This document shows positions 2,997 to 47,316 of a DNA stretch of 53,263 nt, piece by piece. The stretch's first letter is position 1; each line of letters opens with the position of its first letter. The DNA lies in the IMG/VR virus record IMGVR_UViG_3300036852_000419, positions 1-53,263 of that record, one strand, 5' to 3'. The translations under genes and the position numbers were made by a program. The notes under the pieces were generated by a model. It made no database searches and was not told where the DNA came from. It was given only the letters and a program-made list of their open reading frames with translations. This DNA comes from a virus. Taxonomy: Duplodnaviria > Caudoviricetes.

Positions 2997-3991
2997 CACC
3001 ATTTACCGACATGAGCATGTGGCTGCCCAAAAGCGTGCGCGAGGAGGGTGTGTTTCGCTGTGATGCGACGACGCTGAGCGGGATTCTGAAGTGTATGCGC
3101 TACGAGGCAACGCGAACTTCGCTTTCCCGCGTGCCCTCTGGCTGGCAACGCAATCTGGGCTTCGGCGGCGCTCTGCACGCCGCGCTGGACGTGAGACAAA
3201 AGGCGATGATGCGGGGGGAGAAGGTGAGTCAGAGCGCGATGGACGCGGAGATTGAGAAAGCTTTTGCGGGCGCGGTGCTTCAAGATGACGAGTGGCTACA
3301 TTCGGGAAGATGTCGTGAGGCTGTCGGTCTTTACTGCCAGCAATATCCTAGCGAGGATTTTGAGATCATGGCGAGCGAGGTGAGTGCGGAGAAGGAGCTG
3401 GGAACTGTGCTCTATACCGAGACGTTGATGGGTATGGGCAAGGAGCATCGCGTCGAGAAAGAGTGCCGAGTCAAGTGGCAAGGCAAGGGCGACGGCATCT
3501 GGCGACGCGGGCGACACGGGCACTGTGCCGTGAAGGACACGAAATCGACCACGCAGCTCGGCGACCCTGAAATGAAGCGCAAAGAGTTCGAGATGGGGCA
3601 TCAGCTCAAGATGTATGATTGGCTCTTTAGCGACCGCGAGTGGGGCACGATTCGCGAGAATGTAGTGGATCTGGTGGTGCTCAGAGCGCCACTCGCGAAG
3701 GTGACAGCGAAGAGCCTCCCCAGGCATGAGTTCTATCGCTGGGTCATCAGCTACACTGACGAGCAGATCGAGGAAGCCAAGCGCGACGCGCTGAAGGTCA
3801 TTGGGCTCTGGCTCACTGCCTGTGCGCATCACAGCGAGCCGCCACCGATGACGGGAGCGCCGCTGGAGTGCACGTGGGGGAAGGGGTGCTGTTATCGTGA
3901 GGTGTGTGAGCAGCGGAGCGAGAAAGATCGCATGGCTTGGCTTAGCTCAGGTGCTTTTAGGGGCAACGATTTTAACCCCATGAATATGTGA
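2993..3991 (+). CDS. PD-(D/E)XK exonuclease, Cas4/RecB-like, probable Fe-S cluster
   Basis: GKGDG...VKDTKS and QLKMY motifs; an N-terminal Cys plus C-terminal CxxxxxCxxxxxC; lies next to a Sak4-like ATPase and an SSB-like gene. Confidence 0.8.
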   Translation: MTPFTDMSMWLPKSVREEGVFRCDATTLSGILKCMRYEATRTSLSRVPSGWQRNLGFGGALHAALDVRQKAMMRGEKVSQSAMDAEIEKAFAGAVLQDDEWLHSGRCREAVGLYCQQYPSEDFEIMASEVSAEKELGTVLYTETLMGMGKEHRVEKECRVKWQGKGDGIWRRGRHGHCAVKDTKSTTQLGDPEMKRKEFEMGHQLKMYDWLFSDREWGTIRENVVDLVVLRAPLAKVTAKSLPRHEFYRWVISYTDEQIEEAKRDALKVIGLWLTACAHHSEPPPMTGAPLECTWGKGCCYREVCEQRSEKDRMAWLSSGAFRGNDFNPMNM

Positions 3992-44625: not shown

Positions 44626-44794
44626 GATAAGGAAATCGTTAATGCAAAGCTAATGCTTCGCTTACTCGCGCTTTTCAGAGCGCACTGTGACGAACGATTT
44701 CCTATCTGGACCCCCGCGTGCTAAGAGCTTCGTCAGATGCTCAGACCGCTAAACGCAGATTTCGGTGACGAATCCGATACATCCTACTTTCGGA

Positions 44795-44823
44795 AGTCTA
44801 TATCGTTAACGGAAGACTGTCAA
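44795..44823 (-). promoter_or_regulatory. Promoter of the capsid operon
   Basis: Minus strand TTGACA-17 nt-TAGACT. Confidence 0.7.
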
Positions 44824-44938
44824 GGAGAGAATTGTTCCACGTGATACAAAGAAGAAGCCCCGTTAGCTGAAGCTAGGAGGCCGTAACCGAAGCTAACCAG
44901 AGACGCGACTCTAGCACCCCTCCGCCTCGCGTGTCCAG

Positions 44939-44974
44939 CAAAAAGCCCCTGAACGCGTGACCGCTCAGAGGCTT
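44939..44974 (-). terminator. Intrinsic terminator-like hairpin
   Basis: Minus strand AAGCCTCTGAGCG...CGTTCAGGGGCTTTTT. Confidence 0.6.
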
Positions 44975-45046
44975 CGAGGCTCCACACGGAACCTGGACGT
45001 GGTTTTCGTGCAAAAGAAGGCTAACAGCGTCTGAGTCTCCAGTCTA

Positions 45047-45088
45047 GAAAAAAGAGCCCCGCTCTTGTAATGCACGAAAGCGAGGCTT
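45047..45088 (-). terminator. Intrinsic terminator-like hairpin
   Basis: Minus strand AGCCTCGCTTT...AGAGCGGGGCTCTTTTTT. Confidence 0.6.
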
Positions 45089-45150
45089 CAGCGTTCCCTA
45101 CAGATCAGCGCGAGAAAGGCATCTCGCTATGGACAACTCCTTGAAAAAGC

Positions 45151-45372
45151 TTATGGCACATCCTGCTCTTTAAACTTCGCGACGGGTTCACGAGGCGAGA
45201 TTTCCCATGGCATCGGACCGACTTTGAGGTGATTCACGTGAGCCAGCGGGTCGCCAGCGTCGCTCGCGAGCGTGGACTTCGAAACTACTTTCGAGGTCCA
45301 GAGCATGGAGTCGGTGGAGGGAGCTGAGCCGATGCTGGTCAGCTTGGCGGCGGGGTTGAGCATTTCGTTCAT
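45151..45372 (-). CDS. Hypothetical protein
   Basis: ORF ahead of a terminator; start is approximate. Confidence 0.45.
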   Translation of the reverse strand: MNEMLNPAAKLTSIGSAPSTDSMLWTSKVVSKSTLASDAGDPLAHVNHLKVGPMPWEISPREPVAKFKEQDVP

Positions 45373-45376
45373 AAGA

Positions 45377-45610
45377 TTAGCAGATGATCTCAGGGAGCCA
45401 GTGAGGTGTCGTAGTATCTCGCGTAAACATCGGAAGTCCCCATTGTGGATAAGGCACTGATTTCTCGACCACACGCTCGATCACCGGAAATACGTTGCGC
45501 GGCGAGAGCGTCTCGTTGAGCACTCGCTGAAGCTCTTTAGCTTCTTCGAGAGTGAGTTCCAGAGTGTGAGTACCGACTGTGAGAATGAGCTTTTCGAGTT
45601 TGGCTTTCAT
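45377..45610 (-). CDS. Hypothetical protein
   Basis: MKAKLEKL...ELTLEEAKELQRVLNE. Confidence 0.55.
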   Translation of the reverse strand: MKAKLEKLILTVGTHTLELTLEEAKELQRVLNETLSPRNVFPVIERVVEKSVPYPQWGLPMFTRDTTTPHWLPEIIC

Positions 45611-45698
45611 GAGAGTGGTTGCGAAGCCTTCGAGTTGCACGAAGCTAAACCTGGTTATGAGCCGGGTTCAGACAATTGGCCTGCCGCCCGCAATAAAA

Positions 45699-45905
45699 TT
45701 AGACTGGTTCGCCCGGCTTGCCAGGATCAGTCGTGCCGTCGTAGCCGCTACTGCCGCTGGTGATGATGGTCGCGCTCGACTTGGGACTGCCGCCGTCGGC
45801 TCCGACGGCGCTAGTGTGGAGCTGCATCAACGTAGCCTCAGAACTAAACATAGGCGTCGGTGTAGGCATAGAGAGCGGCACAAGAGTTTGGGAATTCGAA
45901 TTCAT
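45699..45905 (-). CDS. Small Ser/Thr/Gly-rich protein
   Basis: ORF downstream of a minus-strand TTGACA. Confidence 0.45.
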   Translation of the reverse strand: MNSNSQTLVPLSMPTPTPMFSSEATLMQLHTSAVGADGGSPKSSATIITSGSSGYDGTTDPGKPGEPV

Positions 45906-45916
45906 GGTAAAAGATG

Positions 45917-45942
45917 TTGACATTTCCCCTAGAAATTGTCAA
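45917..45942. promoter_or_regulatory. Inverted repeat made of two opposed TTGACA boxes at a strand switch
   Basis: TTGACATTTC-CCCTA-GAAATTGTCAA. Confidence 0.55.
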
Positions 45943-46071
45943 GCTCTCTCTCGTGACGCTCGTATTTCAGACAACAACTCTTTCCGTGCATGTGGAGCCG
46001 CTTAGAACGGATGAGCGTCACAACTCCCTTTCTGATTTCTCTACATGCGCGATTTTCTAAGGAATGGTCAA

Positions 46072-46689
46072 ATGAGCAAAGCAACTCAAATCGGGACAGA
46101 CATCAGCAACGACGGACAGTTTACGGTGGACTGCTCGAAACCTTACATTGCCACAGTGGTCATCGAAGGCGTGTGCGATCTGTTGTTTCATCGCTGGTCC
46201 AACGAAGATGTGGAAGCTAAAGGGAATGCTGCTAAAGGCAGCAAAGCCAAGAAGCAGGACAACCTGGAGGCTTACGTGTATCGCACCGATGACGGGATGC
46301 TAGCTATTCCCGGCACTTACCTGAGAGGCGCAATTGTGGCCGCAGCCAAATTCAAGCAAGACCCACGCTCACCTCGCAAGTCAATGTGTGATCTGGCGAA
46401 GGCTGCTGTGGTACCGCTTACTGTACTGGCGTCACTTGGAGTGAAAGCTTGGGATTACGAGGACAGGCAGCGAGTCACAATCCAGCGCAATGCCATCACG
46501 CGCTGCCGTCCTGCTATGAAAACTGGATGGAGAGCTGAATTTAACCTGCTTTGCAATCTTCCAGAATATGTGTCGCCGCAGTGCTTGAATGAGCTTATTC
46601 AGAGCGCAGGGAGACTGATCGGGCTGGCTGATTTCAGACCTAGCTACGGAAGATTCTCAGTGATTGGATTTTCAGTCCATCAGGACTGA
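46072..46689 (+). CDS. Stand-alone RAMP/Cas7-like protein
   Basis: N-terminal strand VVIEGVCDLLFH; AIPGTYLRGAI, similar to the RAMP IPGSSLKGAlR helix motif; C-terminal Gly loop IGLADFRPSYGRF. ATG at 46072 has AAGGAA upstream; alternative start at 46045. Confidence 0.75.
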   Translation: MSKATQIGTDISNDGQFTVDCSKPYIATVVIEGVCDLLFHRWSNEDVEAKGNAAKGSKAKKQDNLEAYVYRTDDGMLAIPGTYLRGAIVAAAKFKQDPRSPRKSMCDLAKAAVVPLTVLASLGVKAWDYEDRQRVTIQRNAITRCRPAMKTGWRAEFNLLCNLPEYVSPQCLNELIQSAGRLIGLADFRPSYGRFSVIGFSVHQD

Positions 46690-46894
46690 GTTGGAGTAAG
46701 ATCGGATGGGGTGCGATGTGGTCTGGTTTGGTCGTGCTGGGTCCGGTTCGGTGTGGCGAGATGCGGTGCGATTTGGTCTGATCGGGTTAGGTAGTGTGTG
46801 TTGTGGTATGATTAGGCTTGGCACGGTTAGGTCAATCGAGGTCCGCTACGGTGCGGTTGCGGTGTGCTTGGTTAGGGTGCGTTATGTCAGGGTA
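46690..46894 (+). ncRNA. Pentamer-periodic (GGY-NN)n array, putative guide RNA of the RAMP protein
   Basis: 41 consecutive 5-nt units; 21 start with GGT/GGC and 7 with GAT, while positions 4-5 vary. Flanked by the RAMP stop codon and a terminator. Confidence 0.75.
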
Positions 46895-46897
46895 TTC

Positions 46898-46936
46898 AAG
46901 ACTCAGGTCTCGAAAGGGATCTGAGTCTTTTCTTTT
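46898..46936 (+). terminator. Strong intrinsic terminator
   Basis: AAGACTCAGGTCTC-GAAA-GGGATCTGAGTCTT followed by TTCTTTT. Confidence 0.85.
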
Positions 46937-46981
46937 GTAACTGCCTCTGAGCCTTGCAAGCGAGAAGTGAAGAGAAAATGC

Positions 46982-47022: not shown

Positions 47023-47316
47023 ATGACCAACCCACTCGAAACAGCTTCAGTGCCTCTCGCGCTCCAGCCTCCCCCCCGCGAAGACCGCCGCCTGCGCTGG
47101 TATCACGCCAAGCTCGCGTTGGGGCTCTGCGGGACGTGTGGCTCGAAGCCGCGCGCTCAGGGCTGTGACGGAAAGCTGTCAGTGAAGTGTGTCGAGTGTC
47201 TGGTGAGCGCGAGAGCGAGAGAGCGCATCAAGCACGGCTGGAAACCGCGATATGTGAGCGGGATGGGCAGGCGAATTTGGCATGGAGCGAAGCGAAGTGA
47301 GGAGGTGGTGTCGTGA
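47023..47316 (+). CDS. Basic zinc-finger-like protein
   Basis: GLCGTCG...KCVEC. Confidence 0.6.
   Translation: MTNPLETASVPLALQPPPREDRRLRWYHAKLALGLCGTCGSKPRAQGCDGKLSVKCVECLVSARARERIKHGWKPRYVSGMGRRIWHGAKRSEEVVS

What the first reader, a model, noticed from the sequence alone, without database searches (positions are those of the whole stretch)
46690..46894. Information content of the pentamer array: constant triplet, variable dinucleotide
In register from 46710 the units read ggtGC gatGT ggtCT ggtTT ggtCG tgcTG ggtCC ggtTC ggtGT ggcGA gatGC ggtGC gatTT ggtCT gatCG ggtTA ggtAG tgtGT gttGT ggtAT gatTA ggcTT ggcAC ggtTA ggtCA atcGA ggtCC gctAC ggtGC ggtTG. Phase is kept without indels over 41 units while positions 4-5 vary freely. 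A drifting microsatellite would homogenise, and coding DNA has period 3. Off-consensus units (for example 46735, 46795-46800, 46835) may separate individual guides. Inference: the NN string encodes one or more target sequences.
Basis: partly seen in the sequence, partly recalled or inferred. Interest (0 to 1): 0.85.

Follow-up and report, generated by a model that had tools for sequence, protein, structure and literature searches.

The report
Phage VIPR guide-RNA pentamer array
The five-base repeat tract is real and is the guide-RNA array of a VIPR system, a CRISPR-like phage weapon first described in 2026 preprints, so it is a new example of a known kind.

Summary
The 5-nt periodicity is real. 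Lag-5 identity is 0.51, against 0.32 ± 0.03 in 2000 shuffles. Entropy is 0.56/1.18/0.65 bits at positions 1-3 and 1.93/1.94 bits at positions 4-5. The phase holds for 32 units (46700-46859), not 41. A 1-nt shift at 46860 precedes 7 weaker units and a terminator hairpin (46898-46929).

The array starts 10 nt after a 214-aa gene. That gene's profile hits the solved SUSP1 Vipr protein (PDB 36pp, E 8e-10), and its model has a Cas7/Csm3 fold. Two 2026 bioRxiv preprints describe this system, VIPR: one Vipr protomer binds each GGY, and the NN bases pair with DNA while skipping one target base per unit.

Of 159 non-redundant homologous loci with both flanks evaluable, 155 carry such arrays. In an all-against-all test, guides of this clade matched other loci only under the 1-nt-skip rule (363 seeds against 2-4 shuffled). 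Off-consensus units lie inside matched guides, so they are not separators.

No target was found for the window's own guides, either in the phage itself, in 245 related loci, or in six IMG/VR tile scans. This scan had already noted VIPR on at least 24 other genomes. Verdict: new member of a known kind.

The parts
46045..46689 (+). vipr gene: a 214-aa stand-alone RAMP/Cas7-like protein. A database copy starts at the second Met and gives 205 aa.
   Evidence: No Pfam, NCBIfam or PADLOC hit; phrog_4652, function unknown. The profile of 49 homologues hits PDB 36pp_D 'SUSP1 Vipr protein' at E 8e-10. The AF2 model has pLDDT 86.8. Foldseek top hits are Cas7/Csm3 subunits of type III and VII complexes, best E 2.7e-7, TM 0.41-0.54. 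G-loop D196-F197-R198-P199 and thumb R155-P156 align with SUSP1 D177-W178-R179 and R138, and are invariant or nearly invariant in A1.
46700..46859 (+). In-phase GGY/NN pentamer array of 32 units. The first two units and five later ones read GAT. It probably holds two or three guides.
   Evidence: Matched guide stretches in relatives are 8-16 units long.
46860..46860 (+). Single extra base that shifts the pentamer phase by +1.
   Evidence: register. A 1-nt gap is the commonest spacing between adjacent in-phase segments in relatives: 34 of the 117 gaps of 30 nt or less tallied.
46861..46895 (+). Seven further, more degenerate pentamers. This is either the 3' part of the last guide or a tail.
   Evidence: unit list. 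Function is inferred only.
46898..46939 (+). Intrinsic terminator: a 14-bp hairpin followed by a T-rich run. It marks the 3' end of the array transcript and fixes the transcribed strand as +.
   Evidence: 14 pairs, 6 G-C, loop 4, then a T-rich tail. RNAfold gives -22 kcal/mol for the 50 nt. The hairpin also appears in the 256-nt fold.

Best explanation
The tract is the vrRNA (guide RNA) array of a VIPR system carried by an uncultured soil phage.

Proposed mechanism:
1. The array is transcribed on the + strand, most likely together with the vipr gene that ends 10 nt upstream, and stops at the hairpin terminator.
2. Vipr protomers polymerise along the RNA, one per pentamer.
3. Each protomer pair sequesters the G-G-pyrimidine triplet. 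This keeps positions 1-3 constant and position 3 always a pyrimidine.
4. The two following bases are presented for pairing with double-stranded DNA.
5. In the target the paired dinucleotides are separated by one skipped base, usually a codon's third position.
6. Binding silences genes of competing phages or prophages.

Shown here: the array's statistics, the Vipr homology and fold, the family-wide gene-array linkage, and the 1-nt-skip code in this clade.

Taken from the two preprints: the filament structure, DNA binding and silencing.

Inferred: co-transcription with vipr, the number of guides (probably two or three, since the array holds 32 + 7 units and matched stretches in relatives are 8-16 units), and the identity of the targets, which is unknown.
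For: (1) Periodicity and information content.

(2) The upstream gene is a Vipr homologue.
- PDB 36pp_D E 8e-10.
- RAMP fold.
- GGY-contact residues reported for SUSP1 Vipr align with invariant or nearly invariant residues of this clade.

(3) Gene-array linkage.
- 155 of 159 non-redundant loci with both flanks evaluable carry a GGY/NN array within 400 nt of the homologue.
- Array density is 2.9 per kb near the gene against 0.022 per kb more than 1.5 kb away.
- Arrays lie on the gene's strand in 121 of 177 upstream and 135 of 177 downstream flanks, and on the opposite strand in 3 and 3.

(4) Code test.
- 8-unit exact seeds: skip 1 = 363, shuffles 2-4.
- 10-unit seeds: 47 against 0-1.
- Skips 0 and 2 stay at shuffle level.
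- 265 guide-target alignments, none within a guide's own locus.
- 16 distinct matched guides of 8-16 units.
- In the 114 target sites inside vipr genes, where the frame is known, the skipped base is codon position 3 in 114 of 114.

(5) No self-target above shuffles in the window, as the preprint reports for its systems.

(6) A terminator lies on the + strand directly after the array.
Against: - No natural target of the window's own guides was found.
- No RNA data exist for this phage.
- The array departs from the characterised type II vrRNAs. It has 32 in-phase units against 9-16, and 10 of 30 core units are not GGY (5 are GAT, against 1.3% of units in the family).
- No conserved 3' tail was recognised.
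- No accessory (vap) gene was recognised. None of the 9 neighbouring ORFs tested is a conserved vipr neighbour in relatives.
- The five shortest family matches (8 units) are within the 2-4 hits expected by chance.
Confidence: 0.9

Rival explanations
1. The array is a protein-binding scaffold or decoy RNA. Vipr coats it through the GGY triplets, but the NN bases carry no target information and vary because they are unconstrained.
For: No target was found for the window's NN string. Entropy near 2 bits at positions 4-5 is also what neutral drift would give.
Against: Guides of the same protein clade match other phage loci far above shuffles, and only with a 1-nt skip. The preprints report reprogramming of specificity by changing only the NN bases.
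Confidence: 0.05
2. The array is a decaying, no longer functional VIPR array. It has many off-consensus units and a phase slip, and it is kept only by chance.
For: 10 of 30 core units are not GGY, there is a +1 slip at 46860, and the last 7 units are weak. No accessory gene was recognised.
Against: Position 3 is a pyrimidine in 30 of 30 core units and position 1 is G in 27 of 30. The vipr gene is intact with its contact residues. Off-consensus units make up 32 of 166 units inside matched, apparently working guides of relatives. The preprint also notes frequent internal degeneracy of vrRNAs. A second soil study holds the identical sequence.
Confidence: 0.03
3. The tract acts as DNA, for example as phased protein-binding sites, or it is the coding sequence of the 72-aa ORF 46706-46924.
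For: An ORF spans the tract. In 3 of the first 6 loci (L002, L004, L006) the G-rich strand is opposite to the gene.
Against: A 5-nt period is incompatible with codon structure. The 72-aa product has no Pfam hit. Arrays lie on the gene's strand in 121 and 135 of 177 flanks, against 3 and 3 on the opposite strand, which fits a transcript. A + strand terminator follows the array.
Confidence: 0.02

Closest known systems
VIPR (Viral Interference Programmable Repeat) systems: Vipr protein plus vrRNA. Sources: bioRxiv 10.64898/2026.04.26.720920 and 10.64898/2026.04.26.720927. Characterised examples are the type II systems of Escherichia phage SUSP1 and a Pseudomonas fulva prophage. Vipr structure: PDB 36pp.
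   Same: - A small stand-alone RAMP protein encoded by a phage.
- An adjacent array of GGY/NN pentamers with hypervariable NN.
- A 1-nt-skip match between NN strings and other phages' genes, with the skipped base at the wobble position (shown here for the clade).
- No self-targeting.
- G-loop D-aromatic-R and thumb R-P residues conserved.
   Different: - Only distant sequence similarity to SUSP1 Vipr (profile E 8e-10; tblastn against the phage collection found only DSL-LC04).
- One uninterrupted 32 + 7-unit array instead of about 100-nt vrRNAs of 9-16 repeats each with its own tail.
- The 3' end is a plain terminator hairpin, not the pseudoknot tail reported for the SUSP1 clade.
- F replaces W at the G2-stacking position.
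- GAT units are frequent.
- No vap gene was recognised.
- The VIPR type (I-VII) could not be assigned, because the classification data are in supplements that were closed.
VIPR 'staggered vrRNA arrays' (legend of fig. S18 of 10.64898/2026.04.26.720920, seen as a passage)
   Same: A continuous pentamer tract without tails between guides. Relatives of this locus show in-phase segments joined most often by a 1-nt offset (34 of the 117 gaps tallied), and the window has one such offset at 46860.
   Different: The figure itself was not visible. Whether the window's array is processed into abutting guides is untested.
Cas7/Csm3 backbone subunits of class 1 CRISPR-Cas effector complexes (types III and VII)
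   Same: Closest solved folds in the library searched: 155 chains at E 0.001 or better, best 2.7e-7. They share RRM core, thumb and G-loop, and they oligomerise along a guide RNA.
   Different: The window has no CRISPR repeat-spacer array: 0 direct-repeat families of 20 nt or more within 200 nt. No Pfam, NCBIfam or PADLOC match was found among the neighbouring ORFs tested. The RNA period is 5 nt with 3 bases sequestered, not 6 nt with 1 flipped.
TRAP (trp RNA-binding attenuation protein) binding sites in Bacillus. This comparison is recalled from memory and was not tested.
   Same: A phased constant triplet separated by short non-conserved spacers, because one protein subunit binds each triplet.
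   Different: The TRAP spacers carry no information and the protein is an unrelated ring. This is an analogy of logic only.

Membership tests
VIPR system | Vipr protein: a stand-alone RAMP with RRM core, thumb and glycine-rich loop, homologous to characterised Vipr | tested here: met
   The profile of 49 homologues hits PDB 36pp_D 'SUSP1 Vipr protein' at E 8e-10 over residues 75-203. AF2 pLDDT is 86.8. Foldseek top hits are Cas7/Csm3.
VIPR system | Residues that hold the GGY triplet (SUSP1 H17, R138, D177, W178, R179) | tested here: inconclusive
   In the alignment R138-P139 aligns with R155-P156, and D177-W178-R179 aligns with D196-F197-R198. D196, R198, R155 and P156 are invariant and F197 is at least 90% conserved in A1. 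H17 lies outside the aligned range. Invariant H49 is only a candidate for it.
VIPR system | Array of YNNGG / GGYNN tandem repeats (at least 4 units) beside the vipr gene, with a conserved triplet and hypervariable NN | tested here: met
   32 in-phase units start 10 nt after the stop codon. Entropy is 0.56/1.18/0.65 bits against 1.93/1.94 bits. 155 of 159 evaluable relatives carry an array within 400 nt of the gene.
VIPR system | NN dinucleotides match natural DNA targets under the 1-nt-skip rule | tested here: inconclusive
   Met for the protein clade: 363 seeds against 2-4 shuffled, and the skipped base is at codon position 3 in 114 of 114 sites inside vipr genes. Not met for the window's own guides, for which no target was found.
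VIPR system | No self-targeting by the locus's own guides | tested here: met
   The best matches in the window phage equal the shuffled controls for skips 0-3. 0 of 265 family alignments fall in the guide's own locus.
VIPR system | Array is expressed as small RNA that co-purifies with Vipr | not testable with these tools
   No RNA run is listed for this DNA. Only a + strand terminator supports transcription.
VIPR system | Invariant structured 3' tail after the repeats (a pseudoknot in the SUSP1 clade) | tested here: inconclusive
   The window has a 14-bp terminator hairpin. Among relatives, 21% of 311 array ends have a 50-nt fold of -20 kcal/mol or lower, against 8% of controls, and the medians do not differ. 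I saw no conserved tail sequence in the loci printed.
VIPR system | Accessory vap gene next to vipr | tested here: inconclusive
   Of the 9 neighbouring ORFs searched against the 245 related loci, 7 had no hit. The DUF6378 ORF hit 4 loci and the 514-aa upstream ORF hit 5. No Pfam, NCBIfam or PADLOC hit for the ORFs next downstream except DUF6378. Sequences of vap1-6 were not available. With six vap genes for seven types, one type may lack a vap; that is my inference.
CRISPR-Cas class 1 | Repeat-spacer array and additional cas genes | tested here: not met
   0 direct-repeat families of 20 nt or more within 200 nt in the window. No defence-system model hit for the Vipr gene or the 3 downstream neighbours tested.

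The most novel reading that the evidence does not exclude
The window's array may not be a string of ordinary 9-16-unit guides. It could be used as one very long vrRNA, with 32 or more protomers and a gapped target of about 95 bp. Alternatively, its unusually frequent G-A-U units mark where Vipr filaments start. These units cluster at units 0, 1 and 3, at 12, 14 and 16, and at 22, which would split the tract into guides of 12, 10 and 10 units. Either case would be a processing or assembly signal not described for VIPR, in a system that works without a vap gene or a structured tail.
Probability: 0.12. Interest if true: 0.5.

Novelty: new member of a known kind. Interest (0 to 1): 0.3.

Why it matters
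This finding shows that a reader working from raw sequence alone recovered the logic of a newly described RNA-guided system: a constant triplet for the protein and a variable dinucleotide for the target, with a 1-nt gap.

For the field, the locus adds a soil-phage member from a Vipr clade far from the characterised SUSP1 and P. fulva systems. The clade-wide test here is an independent computational confirmation that the 1-nt-skip, wobble-skipping code holds in it. That test also found one guide aimed at the most conserved (G-loop) coding stretch of 114 rival vipr genes.

The finding does not open a new question. The kind is published, and this scan has already met it on at least 24 other genomes.

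Tried and rejected
Searches that found nothing useful:
- Rfam, whole window at gathering thresholds: 0 matches.
- Tandem Repeats Finder did not report the array at all, because the units are too unlike one another.
- Pfam, NCBIfam and PADLOC gave nothing for the Vipr gene.

Targets of the window's own guides:
- Window phage, with the array masked. Best windows of 8, 10 and 12 units equal the 20 shuffles for skips 0-3.
- 245 related loci (2.3 Mb, both strands). Skips 0-2 did not exceed the 10 shuffles at any of the five window sizes (8-16 units). Skip 3 exceeded the shuffle maximum by one matched base at 14 and 16 units (23 against 22, 25 against 24), both in L138. I treat that as chance or residual array sequence. 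An earlier version of this script timed out.
- IMG/VR, six exact 8-unit tiles (units 0-7, 8-15, 16-23, 24-31, 2-9 and 20-27). They gave 5, 8, 19, 4, 16 and 19 stretches, 71 in all.
- None of the 71 extended beyond 10 units.
- The best was L299, 10 units at 20 of 20. It lies in an AT-rich stretch with no ORF of 60 aa or more. I estimate that about 0.5-0.8 such extensions are expected by chance among the 71 hits.
- Four related contigs (L284, L288, L292, L296) matched 9 units.
- Exact tiles miss targets with mismatches or with fewer than about 11-15 perfect units, so this is a weak negative.

Other negatives:
- No guide of the 245 loci hits the window phage at 18 of 20 or better: 0 hits, against 1-3 in shuffles for skip 1.
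- Sequencing runs: no RNA holder is listed. Two soil-metagenome DNA runs hold the stretch, and one of them may be the source. Their contigs show no differences in the array, so there is no strain variation to read.
- Codon phase judged from the longest open frame was ambiguous in this G+C-rich DNA. I replaced it with the sites inside vipr genes, where the frame is known.
- A 3' hairpin as a general tail: the medians do not differ from controls.
- AT or AA as a terminal NN: only about 2-fold enriched in the last three units, too weak to place guide boundaries.
- The VIPR type could not be assigned. The figures and data files of the preprint that define the types are supplements or images that I could not see.

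Full report
**Observation.** The sequence at 46700-46895 reads as the finding says. The 30 pentamers listed from 46710 are exact. Base identity is 0.45-0.51 at lags 5, 10, 15, 20, 25 and 30, and 0.21-0.36 at other lags. Lag-5 identity is 0.510, against 0.316 ± 0.031 (maximum 0.400) in 2000 dinucleotide-preserving shuffles. The tract is the highest-scoring 205-nt window of the whole 53-kb sequence.

In the 30 core units, positions 1-3 carry 0.56, 1.18 and 0.65 bits of entropy. Positions 4-5 carry 1.93 and 1.94 bits. Position 3 is a pyrimidine in 30 of 30 units. Exact GGY makes up 20 of 30 units, GAT 5 of 30, and other triplets 5 of 30.

The statement that phase is kept over 41 units needs correcting. 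The in-phase run is 32 units (46700-46859). One extra base at 46860 shifts the phase, and seven weaker units follow to 46895. No second array exists on either strand of the window.

**Surroundings.** The window is the whole assembly, 53,263 bp. It is a tailed-phage genome with tail-fibre-like proteins, a family A polymerase and DUF6378. Overall G+C is 55%.

The array begins 10 nt after the stop codon of a 214-aa ORF (46045-46689, + strand). It is followed directly by a 14-bp hairpin and a T-rich run at 46898-46939, also on the + strand. No sigma-70-like promoter was found on the + strand between the gene and the array. Co-transcription with the gene is therefore the simplest reading, but it is an inference.

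**The protein.** The ORF has no Pfam, NCBIfam or PADLOC match, and it falls in phrog_4652 of unknown function. It belongs to a large family:
- 4682 proteins at E 0.001 or better among 5265 candidates in the word-indexed search.
- 1131 cluster representatives at that threshold in the exhaustive search.

A profile of 49 members (A1) hits one solved structure, PDB 36pp chain D, 'SUSP1 Vipr protein', at E 8e-10 over residues 75-203. An AlphaFold2 model (pLDDT 86.8, pTM 0.78) is most similar to Cas7/Csm3 subunits of type III and VII CRISPR complexes. Foldseek E-values start at 2.7e-7, TM-scores are 0.41-0.54, and 155 chains score E 0.001 or better.

In the alignment, SUSP1 R138-P139 falls on R155-P156, and D177-W178-R179 falls on D196-F197-R198. 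The cryo-EM preprint names these SUSP1 residues as the contacts of G1, G2 and Y3. In this clade they are invariant, and F197 is at least 90% conserved. H17 lies outside the aligned range.

**What is known.** A full-text search for 'pentanucleotide repeat', 'phage' and 'noncoding RNA' returned bioRxiv 10.64898/2026.04.26.720920. A second search returned its companion, 10.64898/2026.04.26.720927.
- Of the first I read the abstract, the whole Results and Discussion, Methods sections 18, 20, 26 and 27, and the legends of figs S17-S22 as passages.
- Of the second I read the abstract and Results sections 5 and 6.

They describe VIPR systems as follows:
- A roughly 20-kDa phage-encoded RAMP (Vipr) polymerises on vrRNAs made of GGY/NN pentamers, one protomer per repeat.
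- Vipr sequesters the GGY triplet and presents the NN bases.
- The NN bases pair with double-stranded DNA in which one base is skipped per unit, generally the codon wobble base.
- The outcome is transcriptional silencing of competing phages.
- Seven types are distinguished, with array architectures that include 'staggered' arrays without tails between guides.

**Family-wide linkage.** I fetched 245 loci encoding relatives: 6 by the single protein, 1 from GenBank, and 80, 80 and 78 by the alignment from IMG/VR, metagenomes and GTDB genomes. I scanned them with a simple GGY-phase detector.
- After removing identical genes, 202 loci remained.
- Of the 159 with at least 400 nt on both sides, 155 carry an array within 400 nt of the gene.
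- Density is 2.9 arrays per kb near the gene, against 0.022 per kb more than 1.5 kb away.
- Arrays lie on the gene's strand in 121 of 177 upstream and 135 of 177 downstream flanks, and on the opposite strand in 3 and 3.
- Segment length has a median of 15 units (quartiles 11-23, maximum 137).
- The commonest gap between adjacent in-phase segments is 1 nt (34 of the 117 gaps of 30 nt or less tallied). The window shows this gap at 46860.

**The code in this clade.** I took the NN strings of 488 distinct family array segments plus the window's own two-part array (490 entries, 9445 units). I looked for exact spaced-seed matches in all loci plus the window, with the arrays masked. I tested 0-3 skipped bases and five order-shuffled controls each.

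| Seed length | Skip 0 | Skip 1 | Skip 2 | Skip 3 | Shuffles |
|---|---|---|---|---|---|
| 8 units | 5 | 363 | 5 | 27 | 0-14 (skip 1: 2-4) |
| 10 units | 0 | 47 | 0 | 7 | 0-1 |

The skip-3 excess is probably unmasked array remnants.

The skip-1 hits form 265 guide-target alignments, none within the guide's own locus. They come from 22 segments, or 16 distinct guides, whose matched stretches are 8-16 units long. The five 8-unit cases are within chance expectation.

One guide (L101) matches the minus strand of the G-loop-coding end of 114 other vipr genes. In these 114 sites, where the frame is known, the skipped base is codon position 3 in 114 of 114. [quoted passage not shown]

Off-consensus units occur inside matched stretches (32 of 166 units), and 29 of those 32 pair at both bases. 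They are tolerated guide units, not separators.

**The window's own guides.** No target was found.
- In the phage itself the best matches equal the shuffles for all skip lengths. That is the expected absence of self-targeting.
- In the 245 loci nothing convincing exceeded shuffles. Only skip 3, at 14 and 16 units in L138, passed the shuffle maximum, and only by one matched base.
- Six exact 8-unit tiles scanned over IMG/VR gave 71 stretches. None extended past 10 units.
- The single 10-unit match (L299) lies in AT-rich non-coding DNA and is within chance expectation.
- No guide of the relatives hits this phage.

These searches are weak.

**How this locus differs from the characterised systems.**
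- The array is one continuous tract of 32 + 7 units, where SUSP1-type vrRNAs have 9-16 repeats each with its own tail. This fits the 'staggered array' class best, but processing is untested.
- G-A-T units are 5 of 30 here, against 1.3% of units in the family.
- The 3' end is a plain terminator hairpin. Among relatives, strong 3' hairpins occur at 21% of 311 array ends against 8% of controls, so they are not universal.
- No accessory gene was recognised. In 30 of 155 relatives a RusA-family gene follows the first array, often with a second array after it. The window has none at that place.

**Rivals.** Three alternatives were considered:
- A pure scaffold or decoy RNA.
- A decaying array.
- A DNA-level or coding role.

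The family-wide target matches, the strict pyrimidine at position 3, the intact protein, the strand bias and the terminator all argue against these. Together I give them about 0.1.

**Verdict.** The kind is already published (two 2026 preprints), and this scan has met it on at least 24 other genomes. It is a new member of a known kind. The clade-level confirmation of the code is a modest addition, and the window's own targets remain unknown.

Noticed in passing
L101:1400-1464 (guide); targets at about 3050-3100 of many loci, e.g. L045:3068-3099: [quoted passage not shown] The skipped base is at codon position 3 in every case. This looks like an anti-VIPR guide aimed at the part of the rival gene least free to mutate.
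   Followed up: partly
window 46700-46814: G-A-T replaces G-G-Y in 7 of the 32 in-phase units (units 0, 1, 3, 12, 14, 16 and 22), against 1.3% of units in the family. The clusters would split the tract into 12 + 10 + 10 units. Whether this is chance or a signal is open.
   Followed up: partly
related loci, e.g. L016:2206-2417 and L059:3185-3676: Long arrays are built of in-phase segments joined most often by exactly 1 extra base (34 of the 117 gaps tallied). This may be the sequence signature of the preprint's 'staggered' arrays.
   Followed up: partly
related loci, 3' ends of arrays (one search list): The last one to three units of many arrays read GGCAT or GGCAA. NN = AT is 12-16% in the last three units against 6-10% further in. 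Matched guide stretches often stop at or just before these units.
   Followed up: partly
L011:3199-3540 and 29 other loci: A RusA-family endonuclease gene follows the first downstream array in 30 of 155 relatives, often with a second array after it. Whether it is an accessory gene or just the neighbouring recombination module is unknown.
   Followed up: partly
L007 (GenBank OR003939.1, phage DSL-LC04) 2215-3121: The Vipr homologue of this deposited phage is annotated 'helix-turn-helix transcriptional regulator'. Three GGY/NN segments (2215-2467) lie just upstream and are not annotated.
   Followed up: no
L002:1738-2394, L004:3612-3681, L006:3638-4379: In a few loci the array's G-rich strand is opposite to the vipr gene, so the array is convergent with it. 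L006 has a 95-unit in-phase segment.
   Followed up: no
window 44626-46044: About 1.4 kb between the divergent 514-aa structural gene and vipr has no ORF above 113 aa and no pentamer array. Two relatives (L058, L067) share the arrangement of the 514-aa homologue followed by vipr.
   Followed up: no
table: The closest Vipr homologues in genomes (60-63% identity) are mostly in Phycisphaerales/Phycisphaerae MAGs. This is a weak hint at the host lineage of this soil phage.
   Followed up: no
window 47023-47316: The first ORF after the terminator encodes a 97-aa cysteine-rich protein with several C-x-x-C-like pairs. It has no family hit and no homologue beside vipr in the 245 loci.
   Followed up: partly
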